DNA of 64,000 nt from a virus. The stretch is taken from the IMG/VR virus record IMGVR_UViG_3300025086_000015, positions 11,870 to 75,869 of that record, one strand, 5' to 3'. Position 1 is the stretch's first letter, and every line of letters begins with the position of its first letter. A model generated the notes under the pieces. The model was not told the origin of the DNA. It did no database searches and was given only the letters and a program-made list of their open reading frames with translations. Both the position numbers and the translations under genes were made by a program. Shown here piece by piece: positions 15,598-49,400 of this stretch.

Positions 15598-15860
15598 TTA
15601 CCTAATATTTGATGTTCATTAATTAGTAAGTAATTTTTTCCGTCAATAGGAGCTTTTACAGCTTCTGTTCTAGGATCAATCATTACAGTATCGCCTTTTT
15701 TTACAAAATGACACTGATCTCCCGCAGCAATTACTTTTAAAACATTAGATTTTTTAGCGTTAGACTTAGCCGTTTCTTCATCTAAGATGATTCCAGATTT
15801 TGTTTCAGTTACTATTGGATCAGGCACTACTATCCAACTTCCGTGTGGTTTAAATTTCAT
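15591..15860 (-). CDS. groES: Co-chaperonin GroES (Cpn10)
   Basis: MKFKPHGSWIVV...ETKSGIIL...KVIAAG...VKKGDTV...IDGKNYLLINEHQILG matches the Cpn10 pattern. Confidence 0.88.
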   Translation of the reverse strand: MKFKPHGSWIVVPDPIVTETKSGIILDEETAKSNAKKSNVLKVIAAGDQCHFVKKGDTVMIDPRTEAVKAPIDGKNYLLINEHQILGKW

Positions 15861-15880
15861 AATATATATTTTTGTTTGGG

Positions 15881-15913
15881 CAAAGATATAAATTATTATT
15901 TTATAAAAACAAA
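15881..15913 (-). promoter_or_regulatory. Bacteroidota sigma-type promoter (-33 TTTG / -7 TATCTTTG) for the packaging operon
   Basis: On the minus strand, TTTG at 15910-15913 and TATCTTTG at 15881-15888 with a 21 nt spacer, 20 nt above the groES ATG. Confidence 0.75.
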
Positions 15914-15942
15914 TCTTTTGTAGTATTTTTCAAGTGGATATA

Positions 15943-16174
15943 GTTATCCCCCTTGGAGTCTCTTTTTCAAACTTGGATTTTACTCTAGCAGTGCTTCTCA
16001 AAAAGAGACCAAAGGATAGTAAGACTGATGTTAATTCACCGCACATACCTGTGTGCAATCTATCCTAACTAGAGTTTATACACTCGTTCTTTTCCAACTA
16101 CCGGAGAAAATCTCACTCTTATTTAGAGTTACCAATCCGATGTCTAATCCCTTTTATGGTTACCGGGGGATGAT
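15943..16174 (+). ncRNA. Putative structured RNA, ~230 nt, with two potential pseudoknots
   Basis: Closing stem GTTATCCCCC/GGGGGATGAT; inner stems GTCTCTTTT/AAAAGAGAC, AGGATAG/CTATCCT and GCACAT/GTGTGC; loop segments ACTCTAG and TTGGATT pair downstream; G-U pairs favour the plus strand. Confidence 0.5.
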
Positions 16175-16186
16175 ATTGTTGGACTG

Positions 16187-16194
16187 CAAAGATA
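16187..16194 (-). promoter_or_regulatory. Second leftward -7 element (TATCTTTG)
   Basis: GCAAAGATATAAA context identical to the 15881 promoter; no clear -33 box. Confidence 0.5.
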
Positions 16195-16358
16195 TAAAAA
16201 GTTTAATAAAAAAAATAAAATAACTAAAAAATTTTTTTTGGGGTTTATTTGTGAGCGTACGGACCTCCTCAAAACAACACCCCGTCTTGTAATAGGGTTT
16301 GCAAGCACCCCCTATTAAAGCCAAAAGATGGCTTTAATTTAATTAAATACTTAATCAA

Positions 16359-16565
16359 ATGGCACAAACTTATGACAAGAATGGTAAGTGGTCTAAGACC
16401 ACAACATTCACAACACCTTCGGGTTGGCACATCAGCACTTCGTTATCTCACACTAAAGGTGAGACTGATGTTAAAAAGTCTCAAGACTTTACTAAACTTG
16501 ATGAATTACCAGAGGAAATTCAACAAGGCATCATGGATGGTACTCTTTCAATAAAATTGAAATAG
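16359..16565 (+). CDS. First early gene, hypothetical protein
   Basis: 68 aa; A-rich leader; followed by its own terminator. Confidence 0.65.
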   Translation: MAQTYDKNGKWSKTTTFTTPSGWHISTSLSHTKGETDVKKSQDFTKLDELPEEIQQGIMDGTLSIKLK

Positions 16566-16569
16566 CACT

Positions 16570-16591
16570 AAAGGGACTTTGTCCCTTTTTT
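16570..16591 (+). terminator. Rho-independent terminator
   Basis: AAAGGGAC-TTT-GTCCCTTTTTT. Confidence 0.75.
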
Positions 16592-16598
16592 AATATAT

Positions 16599-16655
16599 AT
16601 GGTAGTAATCAATTTGTAGTTGTGAGTGTGGCTTCGTGGTCACATTCACTACTAT
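16599..16655 (+). other. Long imperfect hairpin
   Basis: GTGAGTGTGGC/GTCACATTCAC stem containing G-U pairs, closed by ATGGT/ACCAT. Confidence 0.5.
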
Positions 16656-16711
16656 TTCCACCATTTATACAATCAATCAAATCGTTAACATTATAATAAT
16701 ATAACACTAAC

Positions 16712-16831
16712 ATGAAAACACTACTTATATTACTATTAGTAGCAGTATTCTTTGGCAGCTGCGCATCAACTTGCCAATATTCTAATAGTCATTCATATAA
16801 AATGAGAAATAATTGTGCAGCATATAGATAG
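16712..16831 (+). CDS. 39 aa lipoprotein (below the ORF-track cutoff)
   Basis: MKTLLILLLVAVFFGSCASTCQYSNSHSYKMRNNCAAYR: signal peptide with FGS-C lipobox; A-rich leader. Confidence 0.65.
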   Translation: MKTLLILLLVAVFFGSCASTCQYSNSHSYKMRNNCAAYR

Positions 16832-16841
16832 TACAAAACAT

Positions 16842-16930
16842 AAATAACAAGGTTTATGATGTGAAATTCATCTCGTGGCCTCTTGACCAATCAGCCGTTA
16901 AATGCGGTAATAGATAGAGACTTGTTATTT
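16842..16930 (+). ncRNA. Structured element D1: long stem capped by a four-way junction
   Basis: AAATAACAAG/CTTGTTATTT and GTTTAT/ATAGAT stems, then three hairpins GATG/CATC, TGG/CCA and GCCGT/GCGGT. Confidence 0.5.
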
Positions 16931-16934
16931 TTAT

Positions 16935-17011
16935 TAGAAAGCATAAACATTAAATTGGGTATGAACATGGAGGTAGACACTATGCAGGTGTTCACATGTT
17001 CTAACTTTCTA
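16935..17011 (+). ncRNA. Structured element D2
   Basis: Nested stems TAGAAAG/CTTTCTA, GAACATG/CATGTTC and GACAC/GTGTT. Confidence 0.4.
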
Positions 17012-17018
17012 TATACAT

Positions 17019-17094
17019 AAATAAAGAATAGTAGAACGTCTTGGATAACAACCTGCAGTGGTAAACCGTAAGGCATGTGGACTATTCTTTATTT
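17019..17094 (+). ncRNA. Structured element D3: 14 bp stem capped by a four-way junction
   Basis: AAATAAAGAATAGT/ACTATTCTTTATTT and ACGT/ATGT stems; small hairpins TTG/CAA, ACC/GGT and CC-GTAA-GG. Confidence 0.5.
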
Positions 17095-17099
17095 TAAAA

Positions 17100-17496
17100 T
17101 ACAGTTGTAAGGTATTTATAGATAAACCTTGTTTTCTAGATAAACAAAACTAATCTTGACACTGATTGACTTGCAAGCAATCACCTATCTGGTTTAAAGA
17201 AGAAACTTTGATTTCATTCTTTACCGTGGATTTAAAATGGTAAACGTGTCCTAAAATATGGATGTGTGTCCATACTGATGATTCCAAAAGGATGAATTTA
17301 GAAAGATTTTGGGGCTTAACCCGATAAGTATAGTAATATACTTAAAGACATAGTGTGGAATCTATGTTGCCAGCAATGGTCAATTTAAGCAAGCAGGATA
17401 CTACACGGCACCAATGGACAAATGTCTGAGGGTATGTGTATCGCTTCTATTTTAGTTGGAGTGATGAGCTAGTGATAGCAATAGGAAATAACTGTA
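17100..17496 (+). ncRNA. Large structured ncRNA candidate D4 (~400 nt)
   Basis: Closing stem TACAGTTGT/ATAACTGTA; more than 10 nested helices; GNRA loops (GTAA, GCAA); no ORF in the track. Confidence 0.6.
17251..17301 (+). ncRNA. Hammerhead-ribozyme-like three-way junction (type III topology, variant core)
   Basis: CTAAA-A-TATGGAT(GTGT)GTCCATA-CTGATGA-TTCC(AAAA)GGAT-GAA-TTTAG. Confidence 0.55.
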
Positions 17497-17500
17497 GATT

Positions 17501-17993
17501 TAGTTTTGAGTTAACTGTCGAGTTAATAAAGAGTATAAATCAGTATGATGGGCAATCTTAGGGAATAAGATATAACCTGAAATACCATAACGATGAAAAG
17601 TTATACTTGAGTAGTTTAGTATTTTGTCTCTCAAAAGGAGGCGAAACTAATGAATAACCGCTACTTGAACCATAAATAATAACAATATTTATACAACTAA
17701 AAAAGAACAAGTGTTGTTCCGTTAAACATTGAAAGATGACTAAGTCTGAACACGTATGCGTATGTGAATTCAGTTGCATTGATCCCTCAAGGTGATATGT
17801 ATTTCAAGTGAAAGTCAGGTATGGGCCCTAGAACCCATCACCTCGTATGAGTAGTTTGTGAGTAAATGTTTATTGTTAAGAGTGGTTAGCTATACTAACC
17901 GTCATTACACAATACTATTGGAGACGATAGTGGATACGTTGCTAACTCATAAGGCAACAAAAGATGTGTACTATTAGCTATAATCTCAGGCTA
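17501..17993 (+). ncRNA. Large structured ncRNA candidate D5 (~490 nt)
   Basis: Long-range stems TAGTTTTGAG/CTCAGGCTA, AGTTAATA/TATTAGCT, GATGGG/CCCATC, ACCTGA/TCAGGT and GAAATAC/GTATTTC; many local hairpins, some with GAAA/GAGA loops. Confidence 0.6.
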
Positions 17994-18022
17994 TATTTTA
18001 TTAACCTTTTAATCTAAATACT

Positions 18023-18160
18023 ATGAACAACAAGAAATTACTCAAGAATATAACTTGGGAGCTCAAAAGAGCTGAAAAATATTGTACAATATCAATGATA
18101 CTAAATGTATTATTTATATTAATAATAGCAATACAAGCAATTCAATTATATATTAACTAA
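18023..18160 (+). CDS. 45 aa single-pass membrane protein
   Basis: MNNKKLLKNITWELKRAEKYCTISMILNVLFILIIAIQAIQLYIN; CTAAATACT leader. Confidence 0.55.
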   Translation: MNNKKLLKNITWELKRAEKYCTISMILNVLFILIIAIQAIQLYIN

Positions 18161-18173
18161 ATACTAAATAAAC

Positions 18174-18317
18174 ATGGAAACAGATCAAAGAATTTTGAAA
18201 AAGAATTTAGAGATAACTAAACTATCTCAACAAGTAGATAAACTAACATCAGAGTTAGTTAATCTAAAAGAAGAGTATAAACAATTAAAAAACAACACTC
18301 ATGAAGAAGAAAGATGA
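18174..18317 (+). CDS. 47 aa coiled-coil protein
   Basis: METDQRILKKNLEITKLSQQVDKLTSELVNLKEEYKQLKNNTHEEER; fills the gap in the operon. Confidence 0.55.
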   Translation: METDQRILKKNLEITKLSQQVDKLTSELVNLKEEYKQLKNNTHEEER

Positions 18318-18594
18318 AGTATGGTACTGTGAAAACAGTAAGGGACAAAAGATTCCACCTTATAAAAGTACTTATATTGTACCTAAACCTAAGAAATGGA
18401 CATTTGAACGTATCTTAAATAGAATAGGTGTTGTCATTGGCATAGCTATGCTTGTAGCTATTGCATTTAGCTTGACATCTTGCGGGTCATTAAAAATGAC
18501 TGAGAAAGATAAACAAGTAAATTATGAAATTGAGAAGTTATATATTAAATATACTTATCAAAGAGATTCAATACTAATCGAGAATTATAAATAA
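18301..18594 (+). CDS. Membrane protein / lipoprotein
   Basis: Hydrophobic helix IGVVIGIAMLVAIAFS followed by an LTS-C lipobox. Confidence 0.6.
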   Translation: MKKKDEVWYCENSKGQKIPPYKSTYIVPKPKKWTFERILNRIGVVIGIAMLVAIAFSLTSCGSLKMTEKDKQVNYEIEKLYIKYTYQRDSILIENYK

Positions 18595-18609
18595 CTTAAA
18601 TATTACATT

Positions 18610-18762
18610 ATGAAAACAAAAACTAAGATTGAAATTAAAACTGAGTTTATACCTATAGTAGGGTTAGCAGCTGGTTACAGGTCGCGTGAATTAATATTTG
18701 TATTACCATTTATATCTATTGAGATAAATTTTGGTAAACGTAAAGATAAATACGACTTATGA
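18610..18762 (+). CDS. 50 aa hypothetical protein
   Basis: MKTKTKIEIKTEFIPIVGLAAGYRSRELIFVLPFISIEINFGKRKDKYDL; ATGA overlap with the next gene. Confidence 0.55.
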   Translation: MKTKTKIEIKTEFIPIVGLAAGYRSRELIFVLPFISIEINFGKRKDKYDL

Positions 18763-18959
18763 TGGCAGAACTGTTTCAAGTGTGTGTTGACTTGTTAAGA
18801 GACTTGTCATCATACCTTGGATGTACTTATGAAGAAATAAATATTATTATATTTATTATTCTACATCCAACGATCACATTACATTTTATCCTTAAATATA
18901 GAAAAGCTAATAAAGAATTTTATAAACTAAGAGAAATGTACTGGAAACTTAAAAATTAA
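18759..18959 (+). CDS. Small membrane protein
   Basis: 66 aa; LFQVCVDLL...GCTYEEINIIIFIILHP. Confidence 0.65.
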   Translation: MMAELFQVCVDLLRDLSSYLGCTYEEINIIIFIILHPTITLHFILKYRKANKEFYKLREMYWKLKN

Positions 18960-18977
18960 TCTAACCTAAATACTATT

Positions 18978-19241
18978 ATGAAAGAAACCAAAATTATTAC
19001 TATCACATATGAGTGTGACGCTTATGGTAATCACGATTGTCTTGTTGAGGCAATCTGTGATACCAGTGAGCAACAATTTACAGATAAAATGGACGCTATT
19101 CATTTTATTGGTGAGTGTACATCTTGCAAGCATAACTTAAAAGACATACATCCAGATCTCTTCTTCTGGGAAAATAATGAAGAACAACATGATATTCCTA
19201 ACAAGGTGTTAGAAGAATATAGAATTAACAATAATTATTAA
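18978..19241 (+). CDS. Hypothetical Cys/His-rich protein
   Basis: 87 aa; CxxC; CTAAATACT leader. Confidence 0.6.
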   Translation: MKETKIITITYECDAYGNHDCLVEAICDTSEQQFTDKMDAIHFIGECTSCKHNLKDIHPDLFFWENNEEQHDIPNKVLEEYRINNNY

Positions 19242-19260
19242 TAAACAAAAACAATTAAAC

Positions 19261-19854
19261 ATGGACAAGAAAAATGAGTTAAACAGTGGATCATTAGATA
19301 CACTAAAAGTAGGTGAAACATTATTGATTTCAGCTAGACAAATTAACAATGGTAAAATATCATTAGAATTTGCAGAGAAAATAACAGCTAAAGATAGACC
19401 AGTTAGTGCATTAACAGTATTAAATGCAAGTGATGATAGATTTAGTTCAGGTGCTAGACGTGGTTGGGCAACTGCAGAACCATTAGATGCATCTAAAGCA
19501 TTTGATGTAAATTTTGGTGATGATGGTGAATGGTATACATCTGAAAGAGGTGAAATGATGGATTTAGATATTTTAAATCCTACATTTAATGATGTTAGAT
19601 TTAGAGTTCAAATTACAGAAACAACTGAGCCAACGGAATGGCAGGCTGAAAATCTGGAAAGAGCTGCTAAACGTGCAGGTAAAGATGGAGATTATATTAC
19701 ACATAAAGGTGATTATATTTTCTCTAACTCTGATATAATATTATTACCAGAAGGAGAGGATGCTAACCATACATGGTTAACACCAGACACAGAAAGAATG
19801 GCTTCTAAGACAAAAGTTGTTGTAGAAGCAGATGAGGTTGAGGATATGATGTAA
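19261..19854 (+). CDS. Hypothetical acidic protein (possible ssDNA-binding protein)
   Basis: 197 aa; acidic C-terminal tail VEADEVEDMM. The function is a guess. Confidence 0.55.
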   Translation: MDKKNELNSGSLDTLKVGETLLISARQINNGKISLEFAEKITAKDRPVSALTVLNASDDRFSSGARRGWATAEPLDASKAFDVNFGDDGEWYTSERGEMMDLDILNPTFNDVRFRVQITETTEPTEWQAENLERAAKRAGKDGDYITHKGDYIFSNSDIILLPEGEDANHTWLTPDTERMASKTKVVVEADEVEDMM

Positions 19855-38247: not shown

Positions 38248-41200
38248 TTAATACCTGTCGTATTTGTATTGATCACTAGTTTCAAAAGTTTTAGCAAATG
38301 CATTTAAACCAGGTATCATTTTAAAAGTATAGTGGAATCTATTATTTCTATCTCTATTACTATCTTCTCCTAATAGATCATCTCTCATCTCGTCTACAGT
38401 ATTACTACTAAGTTTCATAACTTCTCTACCTAAAGATAGTAATGGTATACCTGTAGCCCTTCCTGATTCTAAGAATTCTTGTGGTTGTGTAAATACTGCA
38501 ACTTCACGATAAGTTCTATTTACTACTGCGTATAGTTTTCTACCCGCATAACTTTGTCTTATATCAATTTTACCATCATCATCATAATCTCCACCCATTA
38601 ACATTAGTAATGACATAAATAATAATGTTAATCTCATTTCCATTAAATGTGCTCTAATATTTGCTCTTTTCATTTCAAGGTAATCTTGAAACATCGCCTC
38701 TCTTTGAGAAAGATCTTTAAGTCTATCGCTGAATTCTGGATTGTCTGCATTATTAGCGGCCCATTGATCAAACTTAGCACGAGCTAAATCTTCTTTTATT
38801 TTAAATTGATTAGTAAGTCCAAATGTAATAACATCTGTTCCAATATTTACTAGATCTTTTCCTAATACTCCTACATAATCTAGTAAAGCAACTTCCTTAT
38901 CTAGTGCCTCTGCAGGTCCCATAACTTCGCTAAGCCCTAAGTTACCCCAAGTGCTCATCCATGTACCCTCATCAAATGTTTTTAGTATATTATCATATCT
39001 CTGTCTACCAAACCTTTCCATTGCTATACCTGGCAGCCAAGATTTATAGTGCATCATAAATCTCATTAATAGTGTATTGTTATACAATGCTATATCTTCA
39101 TCAGTCATTGTACCTTTTACTTTATCACTTATACGTCTAGTTACATTACGAAAATGTCTTTCTTGTTTTTCAGTCATCCCTGGTATAGTAACTATATACC
39201 TATCTACTGCTTTGTTAGATATATTAGTTGCTGTACCTTCCCAAGCAGGATTTTCTTTAATCTCCATTAACTCTAGAAGAGATTTTGTTCCTTCTGGTAA
39301 TTTAGAGAGTACTTCTACTTCATTAGTTTCAGGATCTAACCCATAATTCTGTGCAAGACTATATATTACAGTAGCATCAATACCACGGTCAGCGGTAGAT
39401 AAAAATGAGAACCATTTATCATTAGTCATATGCCTTGTAACATAATTAGCTGATAAAGTATCTGCTCTATTTTGAGCATCATCTCTTTGATAAATCATAA
39501 AATGCTCTGCTAATGCTCTCATTTTAGGATCTGCCTTCATTAAAGCGCCTTGAGCTGTTTTTAAAGCTTTTTTAGTAATAAACCTACCTTTTGCTGCTTG
39601 TTGGTATAATCCAAATTGTCCTGCAAAAAATGCACCTGCTGCTACTGGCATTTTTATACCAAGCGCCATCATCGAGTGATATTGTTTTAAAGCTAATACT
39701 GTTTTAAGTCCACTTAGTTTTCCTATTTTGAAATCCTTAGCATCTAAAGTATTTCCAAAAAAGTATTGATCAATATATCCTGTAAACACGTCTGCATTAC
39801 TTCTAGTTTCAAATAACTTCCTAGTAGCTCCAGATAATGTAGGTATCACATTACCAAATGCATCTGTATCAATTTCTTTAGATACATTATCTTTTAAAAG
39901 TTGTTCCATTGCCATTACTTCGGGGAGAACTTCCATTTTCATTTTATAGTCTGTTGCTGCATTTAAAAGTAATAATAAACCTTTACCTAAATCTCTACTT
40001 TTTAAAGAAGGGTCTACGTTACCATTTGCATCTACAATAGGCCTAATAAATAATTTAGGTATTTTTCTAATAAGTTTACCAGTATTTTCATCTCTTAAAC
40101 CTAGAGATAAGTCATGTTCTCTTACTTGTAAATTCTCAAGTATTGCATCCATACCCAATTTGTGAGTCCCATTTTGTTGGTGCTCTAGCATATCTTTACT
40201 AATATTAGCTATAAAGTTTGGTCCTAATGTTTGGCCAAACATTTCTTCTATTAATCTAATTTTATCTTGGTAGTATTCATAGAATTCTCTTAAAGCTGGA
40301 TTAGCTTGTATTCTACCATATTCTTCAGTTAACCATTTTTCATTTGGCTTTAAAAAATATTTACCCCCTAAAGATACAGAAGCTGTATTATAGAATTTTA
40401 CAATATCATGCTGTTTATCCCAAGCAAGTAATTCTCTTGTTATAGCTTTATCATTTTTACCGTATTTTCTTTTTAGAAATTTTTCTTTATTTTTTCTATA
40501 AGTTTTAAAATTCTTATCATAAGCTTCTTGATTTATAACAGTATTTTCTTTCATCCACTTATACTCTCCTTTTTGTATAGCTCTATCTTTACCTTCGTAA
40601 TATTCTGTTTGATATTTAGCAACAAAGTTTCCAGTTTTATTATTAATTAAAGGAGCGAAAGCTTCGATTGGATTAGATCCTGTATATTGAGAAAGAATAG
40701 CATCTTGTAACGCTTGTATTTCTCCTGCAGCTTGCTTTATAGATTTTCTTCTACCATAGTTTAGTTCATCTACAATTTCCCACAAGTTTCTTAAGTACGG
40801 ATTATTTTGCTTTGATAGAGTTACAAAAGATCCCGTCATATAGTCAATACCTGGGTTGTAATTTTTAATACCTTTAACTCCTCTTTCATTAGCTTTCTCT
40901 GCAACACGGTCCCTAATCTTTGATTCTATCATAGACTGTGCATTTGTAACTGTTCTCCCTACTTCTTCTTGTAATTTAACTGTTTTAGCATATTCTGTAG
41001 GGTTGTTTTTTTGAAGATCTGCCATGTAATCATCTAACCTGAATAGATTCTTATAGAATATTAAATCATTATTTAAATCAACTAATTCTTCCATTGTTAA
41101 ATACATTGGATTAGCATCCCCTAATTTAGTAGTAGGATCATTTTCTTGAATCTTCTTTTCTATATCTTTTAGATCTCTTTTAAGATTATTTAATACATAT

Positions 41201-43419
41201 GCTACATCTTGGTTTAACTGTAGCTTACGCAATTGTTTCTCCATTCTCTCTTTAGCAGCTTTAGCTTTTTCAAAAGTTTCACCAACTTGAAAGTTTTTGT
41301 TTCGTAATCTCTCTTCTACTTGTTTTTTACGGCTTATAAGTTTTACTATTGTATCATTAACTTTATCGAAATCTGTCATTTCTTCAGCTACAGGTATTTG
41401 CTCTAAGAACTCACTAAATTTAGCGCCCATTTGAACAGTAGTAATGTTGCTAGTCATACCTCCTTGGGTATTATACTTATATCTAACATGTATAGGCACA
41501 ATTCTAGATTGTCTTACTTTAGATATACCGTATTCATTTAAAAGTGTTTGTTTATAGGCCCCCATTTGTATGTTATAGGTATCCATTTTTACAGCAAATG
41601 GGTCATTAACTATTTTATATTGACCTCCCATATATTTAACGTATCCAGCTTCTATTGATGGAGATACAAATTTATAATCATAAATACCTGCAGTTCCATC
41701 ACTATACAATACTAATAAATCTATAGTACCTCCAGTTTCAGCTCCTGAATCAATTATTAATTGCTCTGTTTTAAATACTGCCTTACCGTTTGTATTGTTT
41801 TCTTCGTTTATTCTTTTTTGCTGTGCTTTACTTTGTGCAATAATATCTTTAATTCCATTTTCAATTCTTTTAAATTGAAATTCATTAAATGGAGAGTTGG
41901 CTAGAATTTGTGATCTAGACCCTTTACCATTTGCATATAATTCTACTAAGTCTTGCATAGTAGCATGTCCAGCGGTACCTGTTTCTTTTCTTATGTTCTC
42001 TGTAGAGATTCTTCTTTTTCGTTGCTCATCCGTTTCAGGTCTTTTAGCAATTTTCATTGAGTAAAAATATTTCTTTACTTCATCAGAAACCCTACCTTTA
42101 ATTACTACTCCTTCATACGGTGTTCCCGGTTTACCTACATATCTTTCTAGCTTATCACTTCCTGGTTCTACGATCCATTTTTCTTTTATACCTTGCTCTT
42201 CAGCACTAACTTGATCTAAGATATAAGATTGTGTAGTTTTATCTAATTTTTCTAGAATAGTTTCTCTAGGGTCATCTACAGTTCTAGTATCCATTTCGTA
42301 ATATTCCCCAGCTTCTAATCCGCCCATTTGCTTTTCAGCGTTTAAATAGGTGCTAGCACTTTCACTTAGCATAATATATGCTGCTCTAGAGTATGGATCT
42401 CTAGTTACTTTTGCAAAAAAGTTTCTAACTGCTTGCAGCACTCTTTCAAACCACGTTTTAGCCCTATCCATCTGTGCTGGAGAGTCATTTCCTTGTATGT
42501 TCTTTACTAGTTGCTGTGCAATAAGTTTTCCCACAGCTTCTTTTTTCAATTTATTTACATCTCCTTGATATGCTTCTTGGTATCTTGGATCATTTACCAC
42601 ATCATCGTATACACTGTACCTTTCTATGTTATTCATCATAGAGGTAAATAATGGGTTACCGCTAGAACTTAAAAGTTCTACAAAAAAGTGAGCTGCTTCT
42701 TCTGGTAATGTATCTATTCCTGCTTTATTATTTATTACTTGAACTACTTTTCTGAGCATGTCTGCTTTTGCAACAGCATTTATTAATTTACCTTCTTTGT
42801 TTCTTATTTCACTTACAGATTCTACTTTAACCCCAATACTATCTAGAAAATTACGTATAGATTGATCTATTTGTTTGTCGGCTTTTTGCAGTACTTCATT
42901 TTCCATTTGATGGTAAATACTATCTGGATTTAAATTAGTACTTACACTTAAATGTATAATATCTCCTTTAAAATCTTTACCTACTGTAGCGTATATACCA
43001 GGGTATTCTTTTTCAATTCTTTCAGCAAGTTGGTAAGCCCCATAAGGAATATTAATCGCTGCTCCACTAGGAGTTCTTAATTTAAATCTTTCATTAATTC
43101 TATCTATCAACTCAGATGACCTAGGATTGTTAAAACTTCCTAAGTTTTCTGTAGCATGCTTTATTGTTTTATCTTCAGCTATAAATACTGGATCACCATT
43201 TACATTAACAATTCTAGGCTCTCCATTAGAGTCTACATCACCTGCTTGAAACCAATTTTTAAATGTAGGTGTATAAGTTACAGCCCATTTTTTTAAAGCA
43301 GCTTCTTTATCTAGACCTAACTCAACTATACTATTAAAAAGTTTAGATGTTTTACCATTCTCTGCAACTACTTTATCAATTTCCTGATTAACAGGGTTTC
43401 TATATACTGTACATGCCAT
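38248..43419 (-). CDS. Giant virion cargo protein with metallopeptidase-like and PD-(D/E)xK nuclease domains
   Basis: 1723 aa; TPTFKNWF...DSNGEP, EEAAHFFV, GTAGHATMQ...GGTIDLLV...IYDYKF...QMGAYK; hydrophobic C-terminal helices. Confidence 0.75.
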   Translation of the reverse strand: MACTVYRNPVNQEIDKVVAENGKTSKLFNSIVELGLDKEAALKKWAVTYTPTFKNWFQAGDVDSNGEPRIVNVNGDPVFIAEDKTIKHATENLGSFNNPRSSELIDRINERFKLRTPSGAAINIPYGAYQLAERIEKEYPGIYATVGKDFKGDIIHLSVSTNLNPDSIYHQMENEVLQKADKQIDQSIRNFLDSIGVKVESVSEIRNKEGKLINAVAKADMLRKVVQVINNKAGIDTLPEEAAHFFVELLSSSGNPLFTSMMNNIERYSVYDDVVNDPRYQEAYQGDVNKLKKEAVGKLIAQQLVKNIQGNDSPAQMDRAKTWFERVLQAVRNFFAKVTRDPYSRAAYIMLSESASTYLNAEKQMGGLEAGEYYEMDTRTVDDPRETILEKLDKTTQSYILDQVSAEEQGIKEKWIVEPGSDKLERYVGKPGTPYEGVVIKGRVSDEVKKYFYSMKIAKRPETDEQRKRRISTENIRKETGTAGHATMQDLVELYANGKGSRSQILANSPFNEFQFKRIENGIKDIIAQSKAQQKRINEENNTNGKAVFKTEQLIIDSGAETGGTIDLLVLYSDGTAGIYDYKFVSPSIEAGYVKYMGGQYKIVNDPFAVKMDTYNIQMGAYKQTLLNEYGISKVRQSRIVPIHVRYKYNTQGGMTSNITTVQMGAKFSEFLEQIPVAEEMTDFDKVNDTIVKLISRKKQVEERLRNKNFQVGETFEKAKAAKERMEKQLRKLQLNQDVAYVLNNLKRDLKDIEKKIQENDPTTKLGDANPMYLTMEELVDLNNDLIFYKNLFRLDDYMADLQKNNPTEYAKTVKLQEEVGRTVTNAQSMIESKIRDRVAEKANERGVKGIKNYNPGIDYMTGSFVTLSKQNNPYLRNLWEIVDELNYGRRKSIKQAAGEIQALQDAILSQYTGSNPIEAFAPLINNKTGNFVAKYQTEYYEGKDRAIQKGEYKWMKENTVINQEAYDKNFKTYRKNKEKFLKRKYGKNDKAITRELLAWDKQHDIVKFYNTASVSLGGKYFLKPNEKWLTEEYGRIQANPALREFYEYYQDKIRLIEEMFGQTLGPNFIANISKDMLEHQQNGTHKLGMDAILENLQVREHDLSLGLRDENTGKLIRKIPKLFIRPIVDANGNVDPSLKSRDLGKGLLLLLNAATDYKMKMEVLPEVMAMEQLLKDNVSKEIDTDAFGNVIPTLSGATRKLFETRSNADVFTGYIDQYFFGNTLDAKDFKIGKLSGLKTVLALKQYHSMMALGIKMPVAAGAFFAGQFGLYQQAAKGRFITKKALKTAQGALMKADPKMRALAEHFMIYQRDDAQNRADTLSANYVTRHMTNDKWFSFLSTADRGIDATVIYSLAQNYGLDPETNEVEVLSKLPEGTKSLLELMEIKENPAWEGTATNISNKAVDRYIVTIPGMTEKQERHFRNVTRRISDKVKGTMTDEDIALYNNTLLMRFMMHYKSWLPGIAMERFGRQRYDNILKTFDEGTWMSTWGNLGLSEVMGPAEALDKEVALLDYVGVLGKDLVNIGTDVITFGLTNQFKIKEDLARAKFDQWAANNADNPEFSDRLKDLSQREAMFQDYLEMKRANIRAHLMEMRLTLLFMSLLMLMGGDYDDDGKIDIRQSYAGRKLYAVVNRTYREVAVFTQPQEFLESGRATGIPLLSLGREVMKLSSNTVDEMRDDLLGEDSNRDRNNRFHYTFKMIPGLNAFAKTFETSDQYKYDRY

Positions 43420-43424
43420 ATTTA

Positions 43425-46400
43425 TTATTTACTTTTTTTACAATTATCTTTTTCCTTAAGAACTTGATTAACTTCGTTAGAAATTGCATCTTTACTTTTA
43501 AATAATTGCTCTGTTCCTTGTTGTCTTGTAGGATCGTAACCAAAGTCATCATAAGAATCTTTGGTAGTATAGTTGCTTGAATCTAAAGTTGTTGCTCTGT
43601 ACAAAACTACACTTTTTCTGTCAACTAATTGTTTATTAGCTTTAGCTTTTTTAGCTGCTTCCCAATTTCTATACCCCATTGCTACTGCTAACTCTTCTAA
43701 TCCTTCTCTGCCTTTAAGGGTAAGTCCAGCTGCTATAGCTTTTTTAGAGCCTTTATAAATATCATTAATACTTAATGTACCTATTATATCTAAGTGTACT
43801 CTCGCATCCCCATTAGTTAAATACATTCCGCTTGGCATAAGTGTTTTTGCTATAATTACAGCGCTTCCTACTTTATCTAAAACTTGTTCAGTGCCTTTAG
43901 ATATGTCTAATGTATCAAGTCCAAATTTAGATACATTTGATTTTAATAAAGAATCTGTATTAGATTCAATTAAATTCATACCCATACCTCTTTTAGGTAT
44001 TGCAGTAAACACATTCATAGAAGGTGTTTTTTTAGATGGTCCTGTATTTATAAATAGTTTAGTTTCGTACACAGGCTTTGTTATACTACCAACTGTTTTA
44101 ACTGCCCCAGTAGGTGCTGATATACTAACATATTCATGTTGTGAATTATGAATTATGGTACCATCTTTAAATGATTGTTTTCTTTTTTCATTTATTCTAT
44201 AAGGTAACCTTGGAACTATCTTGCCGTCTGATGAAGAATTTTGTATAAAATCTTCCCAAACATTATCTAAGTTTAAATTAAACTCTTCTGAATATCTATT
44301 AAAATATGGAGAGATTATATTTAATACTTCAGTACTTGGCAGCACTTGAAAAAATGCATTAGGACTAAAGTGGAATCCAGATTGTAACACACTAAATTCA
44401 ACTAAGTCTTTAGCTAATTGAGGTGCAATCTCTTGTAATTCTAAATACGAGTCTGATAATAAATCAATATCAAATGTTTGTAATTTTTTACTAAACAGCT
44501 TCATATTATCTATGCTGTATTCAGGATGCTTTGGATCTTGGAACGTTTGAAGTAGAGGATATAACTCTTGTATTAATAGATTATCTTTCAATCTTGGAGA
44601 ACCCTTAGCTGCTAAAATTCTTCTAGGTAAACTATTGTCTCCTCTAAATAAACTACTTATTTTGTTTTTTAAGTACGATCTCTGTAAAGGTGTATTTTGT
44701 ACTATATAAGAAGATAGATGAGAGTCAAATCTTTTCATTACATATCCTATTTCATCAGCGCTTCTTCTTAATGTTGGATTTGTTAACTCGTATATTTTAT
44801 CATATGTCCATTTAGAAATATATGGGTGGTATTCTTTCATATCTAATGAAGAGAACATTTTAGAACCTGCATCAAACCCTTCTCTAAAAGCAGACATAAG
44901 TGAGTATTTCCCATTTTGATTATAAATTAAATTATCTACATTTACAAATGCTTGTGTGTCTTCTACTCTTGCTAGTGCTGCTTTCATGTATTTTATAGCT
45001 GTAGGGCCACTTAATTTACTAGTATCAAATTTAGTAGCTGTTGTTAGTAAGAATAAAAAATCTGCGTATTCTTGATACCTTATAAAATCATCTAAAATTT
45101 GACTTTGCATTTGTTTTTCAACACGGCTTAACTCAGAAATATCTTTTCCAACCATATCTTTTAAAACATCAGCATTAAATTTAACAGGCTCTGATTCAGG
45201 CCTTGCTCCATATTTTGTTTTTAATGTAGAATACATATCTTCTTTACCCATGTAAGATTTACCTCCACTATATTGAGCAGCTAAAGATCTTTGAGTTTCA
45301 TTTAGATTTACATAGTCATCTATAATTGGCTGTGACATAAAGTATGCAACTTGGTCTAACGGAACTCCCGATCTAACTAACATCATATGTATTGGTGCAT
45401 ATTCTACACCAGCATTAATATCAAATACAAAATCTTCTTTCGTTACATCAACATACCCGGTAACGTACTGAGCTAAAACAGAAGATATTTTCATTCCACC
45501 ATTTACATCACTAACTCTAGATAAAGAGTATCCTGTTCCTGCAAAGTTTAATTGTAGATCTATTTCAGGGCTCCAATCTAGCCCCGCTCTTTGTGCTTTA
45601 GCGTGTTGTGTTGCTGTTACAGCTACAATACCTACACCCCCTAAACCAGACCACATACGGTAAGAAGTGTTAACTAAATTTCCAAAGCTTAATTTTTTAT
45701 TAAACATGGTAGATTGGCCTTTACCTTTACCTCTCTTATCTCTAAGTGCAGCAATTTCTCTTGCTACATTCTTAACTTCAAATGCACCAACAGGCGTTAT
45801 AAGCTGATCAAAACTTTGTGGATTTTCTAAAACAGTTTTAATTATTTCTTGTACTCTATTTTGTAAAGCTACTTGTATATTTTGGTCAGATATTGGAAGC
45901 TTACTGAATTGACTTAAAGTCAAATCTCTAGGCTCTTCTTGCTTCATAACTTCATACCTTTCTTCAACTGTTGAATTTTCATCTGTTAAATAAGGTATTC
46001 TAGAAACAGTATTACTTTCTTCATTATATGTATAGTTAGGGAAGTATAGAGTTAATTTATCAATATCATAATCCGATCCAGACTTTCCTACTATTTCAGA
46101 AGGTACTATAATTGTAGACCCCGCTGATGGTGGTAGGTATCCTACTACTTCTATAAAATCTATAGAATTTAATCCCTCTGTAGGAATACGGAATCCTATT
46201 AATTGCTTAAGTCCTTCATCAATATTATTGGCATCTATTAAGTTACCTAAACCTAACTCTTTAAATCTATGCGGAAGCATTACCTGCATAGCTAATGTTT
46301 TGTCTTTTCCAGGTCTGTAGAACTTTAAAGGTTTAAGCATAGCTATATCGATGTTATCTTTATTTGCTTGCTCGTAATCTTTTTGTTTTATTGCTCTTGC

Positions 46401-49400
46401 TTGAATCTCTAAACCGGTTGCAGCTTGTAATACCATCATATCACCAGGCATCTTTCTTTTGATAACTGAGTTTGTTACAATAGCATATAGTATTGATTCT
46501 ATTTTATCTCTTTCAAATAATTGATTTATAAATGGATTATCACTTTTAAGCAATGCTAATATACCGTTCTTTGTGTGCATTGGCATATCACGCTTATCAA
46601 GCTCTGATATAATAGCATCAGATAGAACTTTCATATCTTTAGCTAAATATCTCCCATCATCTTGCATTTCAAGATTTAATCTTTTAGTAAGTTTTTCTAT
46701 ATCTCTCTTAATTAGTTGATAACTAACTTCGTGATATTCGTCGATTACACTTTCCAGACCCGCTTCTTTATATACTTCACTAACCTGTCCATTTTCATAT
46801 ATATTTATAGGAAGCAATGATGTAAGCTGTGTTCCTGCAGATACTTTGTTTTTTATTTTAGGTGCTATCTCTACTTGTATTCCTACTTGAGAAAAATCAA
46901 ACTCTAATAATCCTAAAGGCTCTCCATCTTCTTCAGATAATTCCATCGGCTTGTAACTTGAGTAGTTACCATCTTCTTGATAAAAAGAATCAAAGTTTTG
47001 ACCATCGATTGTAGGAGCCCCCACTTTAACTACAGAGTTAAATACCATATAGTCTATATCATTATCAACCATATCTTGATTAATATCATCATAAGTTCTA
47101 CCTGGCATTAATTGAGGTATTAATGGGAACAATGCAAATTTGTGGAATGTCATAAGTCTTACATTATCCTCTATAAAAGGAGCAAATACTTGCGGCTTTA
47201 ATGCTGGGAAATATGCTAAGTCTTCATTGGCTATAGTATCACCATTCATTATTTTTTGATACAAGTTTTCTTGTGCATCAGTCCATTTACCTGCTCTCCA
47301 CAATAAACTTCTATAAGCATCTAAATGCATAAATCCACCGCCATCAAACTCATCCATGTTATTATAAGTTTGCTCTAAAATATTTTCACCCTTTTCATTT
47401 AAATTATCTAACATGCTAGGGTTTAATACTCTCACAACATCTATATAATCTTGTAAATACGGAGAATCTACTTTAACATCTCCTCTAACGACTGTCTTTA
47501 TTTTAGAAGAATGCTCTTTATTCATACCTAAATTTTCCATATTGTTATTCATCCACTCTAATAAGTGTGGGTCAGATGATGGGTAAATTTTAGTACCTGA
47601 TACTCCTGAAGTTCTTTTAAATAGATCTTTATACAATGCTAAGTCACCTAAAAATAATTTACTTTGTTCAATAACACCAGTCATGTGCTCATATGTTAAT
47701 TGTTCTGAGAGAACTCTAACAGTACTTGGCATTAAAGTAGATGTGTCTGTAGTATTGTCTTGTGACACCATTTTTAGTTTAGATACTAATTGGCTATTAA
47801 TACCTACATTATACGAGCTTCCTTGTTTGCCCGGTCTAATGATATTAAAATCTAGTAATGAATTAGTAACCTCTTGAACTCGTACTTCTAAAAATTCATT
47901 AAGTTTTGACTCTACTTCTGGACTAGAAACGATCTGTGCTATCTTTTCATCTGAAAGTTTTTTAGATAAATCTTTACGGCTAATATCAATTATACCTTTA
48001 AAGAATCTAAGTTCCCCTCCTTGATCTGCATAGTTTTCTATTCTCCTTAACTTACTTGTTTTATTTGAATTAAATATAGTTGCAGTTTTTATTTCATCAA
48101 ATAGGTATCCCTGAAGCCTTTTTACCATATCTTGTTTAGATAAAGTTAAACTAGCAGGAACTCCAAAGCCTATTCCATACTCTGTTTTTTTATCTGCTGT
48201 TCTTATAAACGGCATAATACCATTCCCTAATATAGCGTTAACTTGCATACCTGCTATATCAGACGGTGTGCTTTTAGATAATCCTTTACTTCTACCAAAC
48301 TCTTGTTTTATATCTTCTAAGACTGATATTTCTAATTTTCTACCTTGCTGTGCCATACCCTGTAAGTATACAGAATTAGCTAAGTTAGCATGACCTAATA
48401 ATTCTACTACTCTTTCAGGATTGTTATTTAATTCTGAAGCCGTTACATCTAAATGATTCTTTAGACTAATTCCATAAACTTTTTTACCTGCTGCATTTAT
48501 ATGGATTAAATCTACAGCGTAGTTTGTTTTTTCTATCTCTACATTCATTAAGACTTTTAACCTACCTTGTATGTCTCCCTCGTATAAATCGCTTATTGGA
48601 TTTGATAATACTTCATTCAATGTCCAAGTTACAGCATCTTTAATCTCATTACTGTCCTCATATTTCTCCATAAACGCTGGAGTATCTGAAAATTTAATTC
48701 CTATAGCAGATAATAAAGCCGCTGCTTGTAGAGAGTCTTTTGGAACTTTAGACCACTCTTCTAAAGATTTTGTTACTTTATTGATTGTAACTTTAGCATT
48801 TTTATCTACTACCATTTTACCATCTTTAAGAACACCTACACCATCTATAATAGATTTTCTAAAGTTTAATTTCCATGTATTTCTAACAAGATCATCTATT
48901 CTACTAGAATTATTATCCAGTAAAAATCTACCTCCTTGTCTATCTATAGATTGCATATGGAAAGTTCTATTAGCTTGATTAAATTGTTGAACAACTCTAG
49001 TAATCATTCTAACTTGAGGTCCAGTTTTATCTGACCAGTCATTAGTACTTAAACCTAATCTTTTAACAAGCATTTTTAACTCAGGTCTAGTTTGAGTAAG
49101 CTCTAATAGTTCTTCTACTATAAACTCAGGATCTGTATTAGCTAGCTCTTTGTATAAAAAGGCCATAGTTGAACCAAAATCTACTAGTTTTGGGAATCCG
49201 CTATTATTATATACTAATTGTCTTTTACCATTTATTTCTTGTGTTGCAGGTAGCGTAGATATTAATAATCTAACCGGATGTGGTAAAGTTAAATTAGGAT
49301 CTATTTCTGATTGCGCAGTATCAAACCCTACTCCAGTTCGCTCATCTTCACTTATCTCTAGATCATCTAGTATTTCCATTTTGAATCTTTGTAAATACGC

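What the first reader, a model, noticed from the sequence alone, without database searches (positions are those of the whole stretch)
17501..17993. D5: ~490 nt RNA with hierarchical long-range pairing
Seen: nested long-range helices bring the ends together (TAGTTTTGAG/CTCAGGCTA, AGTTAATA/TATTAGCT, AGTATA/TGTACT, GATGGG/CCCATC, ACCTGA/TCAGGT, GAAATAC/GTATTTC, CAACT/AGTTG). Local hairpins include ATCTTA/TAAGAT, ATAAC/GTTAT, TTGAGTAG/CTACTTGA, GAACAA/TTGTTC, CTGAA/TTCAG, GGTTAG/CTAACC, ACTATTG-GAGA-CGATAGT and GTTGCT/GGCAAC. Size and complexity are in the range of ROOL-type RNAs or large ribozymes, but I cannot assign a family, and I see no sequence similarity to D4.
Basis: partly seen in the sequence, partly recalled or inferred. 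Interest (0 to 1): 0.78.

Follow-up and report, generated by a model that had tools for sequence, protein, structure and literature searches.

The report
GOLLD RNA of marine crAss-like phage
The stretch is the back three-quarters of a known giant phage RNA called GOLLD, which builds RNA cages and has no known function, so this is a new example of a known family.

Summary
Window 17607-17992 (+) matches Rfam GOLLD (RF02032) end to end at 222.4 bits (cut-off 150). Seventeen distinct homologues from marine viral and metagenome contigs show that conservation starts sharply at 17311 and ends at 17992. The real unit is therefore a 682-nt RNA, and the finding (17501-17993) covers only its 3' 72%.

A combined structure of 170 pairs is 95.2% paired, 85 pairs covary, and 0 of 500 shuffles reach it. 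Seven of the eight local hairpins are real. The minus-strand 73-aa ORF is open in 0 of 17 homologues.

Metatranscriptome contigs from two studies cover only the RNA, not its flanks. This is a weak hint of a discrete transcript.

The carrier is a marine crAss-like phage, and 10 of 10 related phage records lack the RNA.

This clade is compact. It lacks one hairpin, and one loop switches among the palindromes CUAG, GAUC and GGCC. Directly upstream lie a variant hammerhead here, and Pistol ribozymes or tRNA-like modules in relatives.

This scan has already noted GOLLD RNAs, and ribozyme-bearing RNA islands of marine crAss-like phages, on other DNA.

The parts
17311..17992 (+). Whole GOLLD RNA, 682 nt, as delimited by conservation
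   Evidence: In alignments A2 and A3, similarity among 18 sequences begins at GGGGCUU (17311) and ends at CUCAGGCU (17992), and the flanks are unrelated. Clade members are 662-722 nt long.
17311..17606 (+). 5' domain (296 nt), not covered by the Rfam model; 13 helices
   Evidence: Helices 1-13 hold 77 pairs, 40 of them changed on both sides, and each helix is 95.6-100% paired. Several G-U pairs are invariant in all 18 sequences, which fixes the + strand.
17607..17992 (+). 3' domain, the conserved GOLLD core
   Evidence: Rfam RF02032, model positions 1-416 of 416, 222.4 bits, E 1e-61. Covariation is shown in helices 14-25.
17669..17704 (+). Variable A-rich linker (36 nt here, 20-53 nt in relatives); no tRNA inside
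   Evidence: This is the indel-rich, unalignable block of A3; lengths are. ARAGORN finds no tRNA in the window.
17654..17717 (+). Pseudoknot AUAAC (17654-17658) with GUUGU (17713-17717), which closes the linker into a loop
   Evidence: 5 pairs, 3 columns with changes on both sides, and no unpaired cell in 18 sequences.
17720..17875 (+). Rfam pseudoknot helix: 17720-17729 with 17866-17875
   Evidence: The pairs of the cmscan alignment. Helix 16 is 96.1% paired, with 5 of 10 pairs covarying.
17735..17906 (+). Long-range helix GAUGAC (17735-17740) with GUCAUU (17901-17906)
   Evidence: 6 pairs with 1 unpaired cell. One column changes on both sides (A-U to G-C) in 1 of 18 sequences. The same complementary words (guga C / G ucac) appear in the Rfam consensus line.
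17822..17837 (+). Hairpin whose 8-nt loop (17826-17833) carries the palindrome CUAG (17828-17831); taken to be the L21a self-kissing loop
   Evidence: 16 of 18 sequences have a 4-nt palindrome in this loop: CUAG in 7, GAUC/UCGA in 7, GGCC in 3. A random 8-mer has one with probability 0.30. The equation with L21a is my inference from residue numbers in the text of PMC12286853.
17977..17991 (+). 3'-terminal hairpin with the invariant loop UAAUCUCA (Rfam's last helix)
Evidence: Helix 25 is 100% paired, with C-G to G-C covariation in 4 of 18 sequences.
17251..17301 (+). Type III hammerhead-like element 9 nt upstream of the RNA; predicted cut after A17256; the 15.1-16.1 pair is U-A instead of A-U
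   Evidence: Rfam Hammerhead_3, 24.2 bits (cut-off 48.5), E 0.0081 in a 501-nt search. The same core occurs in more than 117 viral contigs. Two of them (L159, L148) carry the same swap, with stem III covarying.
17158..17250 (+). Unassigned ~93-nt stem-closed module (GACAC 17158-17162 with GUGUC 17246-17250) abutting the hammerhead
   Evidence: It shares a core with the region upstream of the GOLLD RNA in L091, L051, L082 and L087 (A4), and with the region upstream of hammerheads in L213, L141 and L168. There is no Rfam match.
17558..17779 (-). 73-aa ORF: a chance open frame, not a gene
   Evidence: It is open in 0 of 17 homologues. The first stop falls at or before codon 34 in all, and the segment length is not a multiple of three in 10 of 17.

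Best explanation
Window 17311-17992 (+) encodes a 682-nt GOLLD RNA (Rfam RF02032) carried as an accessory gene by an uncultured marine crAss-like phage. The finding is its 3' 72%.

Shown here:
- Family membership.
- The true boundaries.
- A two-domain secondary structure with pseudoknots, supported by covariation.
- A variable linker closed into a loop by a pseudoknot.
- Presence of the RNA, without its flanks, in marine RNA libraries.

Inferred:
- The RNA is made as part of a longer transcript of a non-coding RNA island at the head of the plus-strand gene block.
- It is separated from upstream RNA by a processing element. Here that is a variant hammerhead. In relatives it is a Pistol ribozyme or a tRNA-like module that host tRNA-end-processing enzymes could cut (my knowledge of tRNA maturation, not tested).
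- Like GOLLD env-38 in the cryo-EM work (PMC12286853), copies then assemble through loop-loop and A-minor contacts into a closed RNA-only cage with the linker inside. The loop at 17826-17833, which stays self-complementary while its sequence changes, would be one cage-closing contact.

What the cage does for the phage is unknown. The cited paper proposes enclosing or sequestering tRNAs, ribosomes or other molecules during infection as a guess.
For: - Rfam GOLLD, full-length match at 222.4 bits against a cut-off of 150. All 15 homologue loci scanned also pass, at 186.6-215.9 bits.
- Conservation across 18 distinct sequences has sharp edges at 17311 and 17992.
- The structure has 170 pairs in 25 helices, 95.2% of cells paired and 85 pairs changed on both sides. 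0 of 500 shuffles reach it, and slid controls are 33.7-43.5% paired. Two further covarying tertiary helices were found.
- The linker varies from 20 to 53 nt.
- The loop palindrome switches among CUAG, GAUC and GGCC in 16 of 18 sequences. The paper uses the same kind of evidence for bridge B8.
- RNA-library contigs X4 (17280-17925), X5 (17396-17917) and X7 (17331-17991) cover only the RNA. X4 and X5 are one sample and X7 a second study. DNA run X3 covers all 30 bins of 15800-19800.
- The upstream elements are a hammerhead-like match, Pistol at 69.4 bits ending 44 nt upstream in L083 and L112, and tmRNA-like tRNA-shaped modules ending 3-4 nt upstream in L062 and L092-L095.
- Cage formation by GOLLD is from PMC12286853 (abstract, section 7 and passages read).
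Against: - No experiment here shows oligomerisation of this compact clade. Its 5' domain is 296 nt against 420 nt in env-38.
- Only 7 of 115 other GOLLD loci match the clade's 5'-domain profile, and only 2 of those strongly.
- The clade lacks one of the two hairpins that close the env-38 cage. The assembly could therefore differ or be absent.
- Contigs cannot show RNA ends, strand or level, so the expression evidence is only a weak hint.
- The hammerhead scores below Rfam's cut-off and has a swapped core pair that, as I recall from the older mutagenesis literature (not checked here), lowers activity.
- Upstream elements are heterogeneous. Five relatives have an unassigned hairpin module, three a plain hairpin, one direct repeats and one nothing I could recognise.
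- In a wider GOLLD sample, a crude hammerhead-core pattern and ARAGORN found ordinary tRNAs but no convincing ribozyme.
- No promoter or terminator could be assigned.
Confidence: 0.9

Rival explanations
1. The functional RNA is longer, about 17100-17992. It would include the upstream stem-closed module and the hammerhead as internal parts of one giant GOLLD-like RNA, as another first-stage note on this stretch proposed.
For: The upstream module (17158-17250) is shared with the five relatives L091, L085, L051, L082 and L087, directly upstream of their GOLLD RNAs. RNA contig X4 begins at 17280, inside the hammerhead. Canonical GOLLD 5' domains are about 120 nt longer than this one.
Against: Twelve of the 17 homologues have quite different sequence upstream of the same conserved start: tRNA-like modules, Pistol, plain hairpins, repeats. 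The same module plus hammerhead also occurs in contigs found through the hammerhead alone (L213, L141, L168). I did not check those contigs for a GOLLD RNA. A hammerhead cut after 17256 would separate the module from the GOLLD RNA.
Confidence: 0.07
2. One reading: an independent ~490-nt RNA (17501-17993) of a new family, closed by nested long-range helices, possibly a large ribozyme or ROOL-like RNA.
For: The complementary words exist, and the minimum-free-energy fold of the isolated stretch pairs some of them.
Against: The long-range helices do no better than shuffles on 18 homologues. They compete with helices that covary. The stretch matches GOLLD, not a new family. Position 17501 lies inside a covarying helix (17497-17541).
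Confidence: 0.01
3. The conserved feature is the minus-strand 73-aa ORF (17558-17779), or the stretch is merely an untranslated leader of the downstream small genes.
For: The ORF is open in the window. Small genes follow at 18023 onward.
Against: The ORF is broken in 17 of 17 homologues. The downstream genes differ among GOLLD-bearing loci: the 45-aa ORF at 18023 has a weak match in 1 of 17, and the others in 2-3 of 17. Invariant G-U pairs and the Rfam match fix a structured + strand RNA.
Confidence: 0.02

Closest known systems
GOLLD RNA (Rfam RF02032; Weinberg et al. 2009 as cited in PMC12286853), in particular marine env-38, solved as a 14-mer cage (PMC12286853)
   Same: Full-length match to the family's 3'-domain model, including its pseudoknot. 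It also has a variable linker after the first 3'-domain hairpin, a separate and less conserved 5' domain, a phage origin and a marine source. A self-complementary loop covaries as described for bridge B8.
   Different: It is shorter: 682 nt against 833 nt, with a 5' domain of 296 against 420 nt. One hairpin of the GAAAG...UGAGUA segment is missing: the segment is 33-34 nt in 18 of 18 clade members, against 47-48 nt in 31 and 39-44 nt in 21 of 70 other GOLLD RNAs. The palindrome in the retained loop is 4 nt, where the paper describes a dinucleotide. There is no tRNA beside or inside it. The carrier is a crAss-like phage.
GOLLD RNAs of tRNA islands (Lactobacillales prophages; Mycobacterium tRNA arrays, Morgado et al. 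2020, seen only as a reference in PMC12286853)
   Same: Same family. In relatives of this RNA, a tRNA-shaped module sits 3-4 nt upstream. In my wider sample of viral GOLLD loci, tRNAs lie directly after the RNA in 10 loci, in the linker in 3 and upstream in 4, out of 62 loci with enough flank.
   Different: The window has no tRNA at all. The neighbours are ribozyme-like and unassigned small RNA modules.
ROOL RNA (octameric cage; PMC5737381, PMC12286853)
   Same: A large ornate phage RNA of unknown function that forms an RNA-only cage, in a similar genomic setting.
   Different: There is no Rfam ROOL match in the window. The sequence and fold are unrelated.
Type III hammerhead ribozymes of phages (Rfam RF00008), for the element just upstream
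   Same: CUGAUGA core, GAA, three stems in type III order, and the same stem II (UUCC-loop-GGAU) as more than 100 phage examples.
   Different: The 15.1-16.1 pair is U-A instead of A-U (3 of the 119 occurrences examined: the window, L159 and L148). The score is below Rfam's cut-off (24.2 against 48.5).

Membership tests
GOLLD RNA (RF02032) | Score at or above the curated gathering cut-off of the family's covariance model, over the whole model | tested here: met
   222.4 bits against 150, model positions 1-416 of 416, not truncated.
GOLLD RNA (RF02032) | The 3'-domain helices and pseudoknot are kept by compensatory change | tested here: met
   Helices 14-25 are 72.5-100% paired. The pseudoknot is 96.1% paired with 5 covarying pairs.
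GOLLD RNA (RF02032) | A variable linker after the first hairpin of the 3' domain | tested here: met
   17669-17704; 20-53 nt in 18 members and unalignable.
GOLLD RNA (RF02032) | A large structured 5' domain, less conserved than the 3' domain | tested here: met
   296 nt, 13 helices, 40 of 77 pairs covary. The clade's 5'-domain profile hits 7 of 115 other GOLLD loci, against 81 of 115 for its 3'-domain profile.
GOLLD RNA (RF02032) | Phage or prophage setting, often beside tRNAs | tested here: inconclusive
   Phage setting: met (TerL, portal and major head protein; crAss-like TerL). tRNA neighbour: none in the window, but tRNA-like modules occur in five relatives.
GOLLD RNA (RF02032) | Both hairpins (L21a, L21b) that close the env-38 cage | tested here: not met
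   Only one hairpin is present; Rfam model positions 250-268 are deleted. This is a feature of env-38 and of the majority of GOLLD RNAs, not a family criterion: other one-hairpin GOLLD RNAs appear.
GOLLD RNA (RF02032) | Homo-oligomeric cage | not testable with these tools
   There is only indirect support, from the palindrome switching in the loop.
ROOL, OLE, RNase P, group I and II introns | Match to the Rfam model | tested here: not met
   No match at gathering score in 64 kb. None at E<=1 in 16000-18400. A group I hit at 11.4 bits, E 2.8, on the minus strand of 17055-17206 is noise.
Hammerhead ribozyme type III (RF00008), for 17251-17301 | CUGANGA and GAAA core with an A15.1-U16.1 pair, three stems, and a score at or above the cut-off | tested here: not met
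   CUGAUGA, GAA and stems I-III are present, but the 15.1-16.1 pair is U-A and the score is 24.2 against 48.5. It works like, and is clearly derived from, the phage hammerhead family. Activity is untested.

The most novel reading that the evidence does not exclude
Marine crAss-like phages carry a compact GOLLD subclass (662-722 nt). Its shortened cap domain, missing second equatorial hairpin and lengthened self-complementary loop would give a cage of different geometry or copy number from the 14-mer. Its 5' end would be set by interchangeable upstream cutters: a natural hammerhead variant with a U15.1-A16.1 pair, Pistol ribozymes, or tRNA-like modules. GOLLD would then be a product released from a polycistronic non-coding RNA island.
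Probability: 0.3. Interest if true: 0.5.

Novelty: new member of a known kind. Interest (0 to 1): 0.3.

Why it matters
GOLLD is one of the few natural RNAs known to build a closed cage without protein, and its function is still unknown.

This example adds a short, well-delimited clade of 18 sequences with a covariation-supported 5' domain and two extra pseudoknots. It also adds a loop whose palindrome changes while staying self-complementary, and a setting in crAss-like phages, where the RNA is present in some relatives and absent from others.

That makes a compact construct for structural work. The near-isogenic phages with and without the RNA would be a natural comparison if a host is ever cultured.

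The upstream hammerhead variant and the Pistol ribozymes suggest how the RNA is released from a longer transcript.

None of this overturns what is known.

Tried and rejected
- **Phage DNA search.** A blastn search (distant mode) of 15800-18100 against the GenBank phage collection found nothing.
- **tRNA and tmRNA.** ARAGORN found no tRNA or tmRNA in the window, or in L051 and L062. The tRNA-like modules upstream of some relatives were seen only by eye and through Rfam's tmRNA model.
- **Promoters and terminators.** The sigma-70 promoter scan gave 10 sites against 13.4 expected. It found no terminator next to the RNA. A Bacteroidota-type promoter pattern gave 8 matches against 4.78 expected. 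None lies on the + strand between 15914 and 24300. I assign no promoter or terminator.
- **Canonical cellular GOLLD RNAs.** The single genome-contig scan, with a pattern taken from the Rfam consensus line, returned two chance matches. Neither has a GOLLD RNA by Rfam or nhmmer. I therefore could not compare this RNA with GOLLD RNAs of cellular genomes.
- **Unassigned upstream module.** Rfam at E<=10 on the module upstream of L051's GOLLD RNA gave only noise.
- **Other long-range contacts.** A covariation scan for further contacts, such as the L20 to J13/15 contact of the paper, found only the two helices reported and no 5'-domain partner. With 18 partly redundant sequences, this is weak evidence of absence.
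- **Linked protein genes.** No neighbouring small protein is consistently linked to the RNA.
- **RNA-library cover.** The lack of RNA-library contigs over the flanks is only a weak hint, as the tool itself states.
- **Helix numbering.** The mapping of the paper's helix numbers (L21a, L21b) onto Rfam positions is my inference from residue numbers in the text.
- **Literature.**
  - Searches for GOLLD with phage (25 papers, 20 listed), with ribozyme or pistol and with hammerhead (3 papers) showed no title or abstract about ribozymes flanking GOLLD.
  - Searches for GOLLD with crAss terms showed no title or abstract about GOLLD in crAss-like phages. One search was swamped by unrelated plant papers. 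In one search, the ten listed papers hold no 'GOLLD RNA'.
  - I read passages only of PMC12286853 and PMC5737381. This is not proof that the points are not in print.

Full report
**What the stretch is.** A scan of the whole 64-kb window against Rfam 15 at curated thresholds gives a single match. It is GOLLD (RF02032) at 17607-17992 on the + strand, with 222.4 bits against a cut-off of 150, E 1e-61, and model positions 1-416 of 416. A more permissive scan of 16000-18400 and a search of the window's own record repeat it. No other large-RNA family appears: no ROOL, OLE, RNase P or group I/II intron. The finding's 3' end (17993) coincides with the end of the match. Its 5' end (17501) lies 106 nt upstream of the model's start.

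The Rfam model covers only the conserved 3' half of GOLLD. In the solved env-38 RNA, the 5' region is residues 1-420 and the 3' region 421-833, with a disordered linker at 497-538 (PMC12286853, section 7 read). The question then became where this RNA really starts.

**Homologues and boundaries.**
- The window is part of a 75.9-kb viral record estimated 87% complete.
- Loci around relatives of its large terminase (80 loci) held the RNA in only two, L051 and L062 (blastn).
- Pattern scans with motifs of the upstream part found more copies in viral contigs and in marine metagenome contigs. A profile search confirmed them.
- After removing duplicates, 17 distinct homologues remained. I aligned them with the window as A3.
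- Similarity begins abruptly at GGGGCUU (17311) and ends at CUCAGGCU (17992). The flanks on both sides are unrelated between groups of sequences.
- All 15 homologue loci that I scanned pass the GOLLD cut-off, at 186.6-215.9 bits.
- The unit is therefore 682 nt here and 662-722 nt in the clade. The 5' domain is 292-318 nt, the 3' domain 370-406 nt and the linker 20-53 nt.

**Structure.** I combined the RNAalifold helices of the 5' domain with the Rfam helices and pseudoknot of the 3' domain, transferred by hand from the cmscan alignment and checked by script.
- On 18 sequences, the 170 pairs in 25 helices are 95.2% paired, and 85 pairs show changes on both sides. No shuffle of 500 reaches any of the five measures. 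Sliding the partners by 1-3 columns drops pairing to 33.7-43.5%.
- Within the 5' domain, 40 of 77 pairs covary.
- Several G-U pairs are invariant in all 18 sequences, which fixes the + strand.
- A scan of unpaired columns found two more helices. AUAAC (17654-17658) pairs with GUUGU (17713-17717), with three covarying columns and no unpaired cell. This helix closes the variable linker (17669-17704) into a loop. GAUGAC (17735-17740) pairs with GUCAUU (17901-17906).

- The eight local hairpins are 92.2% paired, with 21 of 49 pairs covarying. Seven are Rfam or 5'-domain helices.
- The eighth, GAACAA/TTGTTC, is 70.4% paired. Its bases are used by the linker-closing pseudoknot.
- The seven nested long-range helices are 62.7% paired against 62.3% in shuffles, and 203 of 500 shuffles reach the covariation score. 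They use bases that belong to supported helices. For example, CUCAGGCU is the loop and 3' strand of the terminal hairpin, whose stem covaries C-G to G-C.
- Energy alone is unimpressive: z -2.04 and z -2.21.

**The ORF.** The minus-strand 73-aa frame at 17558-17779 is open in 0 of 17 homologues. The first stop falls at or before codon 34 in every one. The aligned segment length is not a multiple of three in 10 of 17.

**Expression.** Twenty public runs hold part of the stretch, and 13 of them are on record as RNA. I laid 15800-19800 on three metatranscriptome runs and one DNA run, all held as contigs.
- X4 has one 647-nt contig on 17280-17925.
- X5, from the same sample as X4, has one 524-nt contig on 17396-17917.
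- X7, from another study, has pieces on 17331-17991.
- None of the three has anything on the other 3.3 kb, while DNA run X3 covers all 30 bins.

Contigs cannot show ends, strand or level. The runs were also found through this very stretch.

**Host and distribution.**
- PHROG profiles name a large terminase, a portal, a major head protein, a DNA polymerase and a helicase.
- The terminase is 40-43% identical to those of uncultured crAss-like phages. Bacteroides, Flavobacterium and Cellulophaga phages are among the 160 matching records.
- All homologues come from marine samples.
- GOLLD is absent at E<=0.001 from 10 of 10 related phage records. Two of these are estimated 95% and 100% complete. 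The same tool finds the RNA in the window's own record. It is therefore an accessory gene of this lineage.
- It sits in an almost gene-free 1.2 kb (about 16833-18022) at the head of the plus-strand block.

- The clade's 3'-domain profile hits 81 of the 115. Its 5'-domain profile hits 7, and only 2 of those strongly. This agrees with the published statement that the 5' region is less conserved.
- The segment between GAAAG and UGAGUA is 33-34 nt in 18 of 18 clade members. In 70 measurable others it is 47-48 nt in 31 and 39-44 nt in 21. The others mostly carry two hairpins there, and this clade carries one. Rfam likewise deletes model positions 250-268.
- The retained hairpin's loop holds a 4-nt palindrome in 16 of 18 sequences: CUAG in 7, GAUC/UCGA in 7, GGCC in 3. 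A random loop has one with probability 0.30.
- The cryo-EM paper reports that two self-kissing loops (L21a, L21b) and an A-minor contact join the two half-shells. It also reports that L21a covaries between GC and CG.
- By residue numbers, I equate the retained loop with L21a and the missing hairpin with L21b.
- Single-hairpin variants also occur in other lineages, so the trait is not unique.

**What lies just upstream.** A note by another first-stage reader pointed to a hammerhead-like core at 17251-17301.
- Rfam's type III model scores it at 24.2 bits (cut-off 48.5), E 0.0081 in a 501-nt search.
- Its core and stem II (CUGAUGA-UUCC-loop-GGAU-GAA) occur in more than 117 viral contigs. Of the 118 matches, 111 have the canonical A after GAA.
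- Two of those contigs (L159, L148) and the window instead have U15.1-A16.1. Their stem III covaries: CUAAA/UUUAG, CUAUA/UAUAG, CUGAA/UUCAG. This looks like a natural variant kept by selection. Its activity is untested.
- The predicted cut after A17256 would leave the ribozyme body on the 5' end of the GOLLD RNA and free the 93-nt stem-closed module at 17158-17250.
- That module is shared with the upstream regions of five relatives, and with three hammerhead-bearing contigs.
- In relatives, the same position holds a Pistol ribozyme (69.4 bits against 34.5, ending 44 nt upstream; L083 and L112, which have identical flanks), or an 80-nt tmRNA-like tRNA-shaped module ending 3-4 nt upstream (L062, L092-L095; Rfam tmRNA 48.7-50 bits in two of them).
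- The remaining relatives have an unassigned hairpin module (5), a plain hairpin (3), direct repeats (1) or nothing recognisable (1).
- In the wider sample, ARAGORN and a crude core pattern found ordinary tRNAs after (10 loci), inside (3) or before (4) the RNA, among 62 loci, but no convincing hammerhead.
- Release by an upstream cutter is thus a reasonable but unproven reading for this clade.

**Comparison and verdict.** This is a member of a known family and meets every family criterion I could test.

New here are the compact clade, its covariation-supported 5' domain and pseudoknots, the palindrome-switching loop, the crAss-like carrier with patchy presence, and the ribozyme-like neighbours. 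Earlier reports of this scan (AI notes) describe GOLLD RNAs in many other genomes, and ribozyme-bearing RNA islands next to GOLLD in other marine crAss-like phages. The kind of locus is therefore not new to the scan either. The function of GOLLD remains unknown.

Noticed in passing
window 17251-17301 (+): A type III hammerhead-like element with a swapped U15.1-A16.1 pair, 9 nt upstream of the GOLLD RNA. The same swap, with covarying stem III, occurs in L159 and L148. The core is otherwise that of more than 100 phage hammerheads.
   Followed up: partly
window 17158-17250 (+): A ~93-nt stem-closed module with a conserved core (UUUGAAAG..AAACUUUGA..UUUAC.GU.GA). It is shared with the regions upstream of the GOLLD RNA in L091, L085, L051, L082 and L087, and upstream of hammerheads in L213, L141 and L168. 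No Rfam family matches it.
   Followed up: partly
window 16842-17098 (+): Three back-to-back ~80-90-nt stem-closed modules. Each recurs on its own in other related phage contigs at higher identity than the flanks: 16842-16932 in L006 and L073 (83-89%), 16935-17012 in L051 (98.7%), and 17010-17098 in L028 and L035 (97.7%). No Rfam match at E<=10.
   Followed up: partly
window 15860-16300: A block without a long ORF, between the two divergent gene blocks, that is conserved at 68-88% identity in most terminase-related loci. A Bacteroidota-type promoter pattern lies at 15881-15913 on the minus strand.
   Followed up: no
L083:837-912 (-), L112:11396-11471 (-), L101:858-931 (+): Pistol ribozymes well above Rfam's cut-off. 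In L083 and L112 they end 44 nt upstream of the GOLLD start. In L101 the ribozyme is 1.27 kb upstream.
   Followed up: partly
L112:8287-8713 (-), L114:744-1158 (-); L093:961-1040, L094:1103-1183: Full-length tmRNA genes on two GOLLD-bearing phage contigs. Separately, ~80-nt modules with only the tRNA-like part of tmRNA (acceptor stem, T arm, no encoded CCA) sit directly upstream of the GOLLD RNA in five relatives.
   Followed up: partly
L091:10586-10640 (-), and the same place in L085, L051, L082 and L087: A hairpin with a covarying 7-bp stem (CUUCAUC/GAUGAAG, CUACAUC/GAUGUGG, CUCUAUC/GAUGGAG) around a conserved 22-nt loop (A.AAUACAAGCCUUGACGUGGC). It lies between the upstream module and the GOLLD RNA. 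It is unassigned and could be another processing element.
   Followed up: no
window 16359-16588 (+): A 68-aa ORF followed at once by a terminator-like hairpin (16570-16588). It is probably a real small gene at the start of the plus-strand block.
   Followed up: no
window 38248-56381 (-): Two very long ORFs (1723 aa and 4318 aa). The 1723-aa one has no PHROG match, and the 4318-aa one was not searched. Their size fits the giant proteins of crAss-like phages; that resemblance is recalled, not tested.
   Followed up: no
window 17956-18033 (-): A weak match to the Bacteroidetes FopS small RNA model (24.8 bits against a cut-off of 56, E 0.68) overlapping the 3' end of the GOLLD RNA. Most likely chance.
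   Followed up: no
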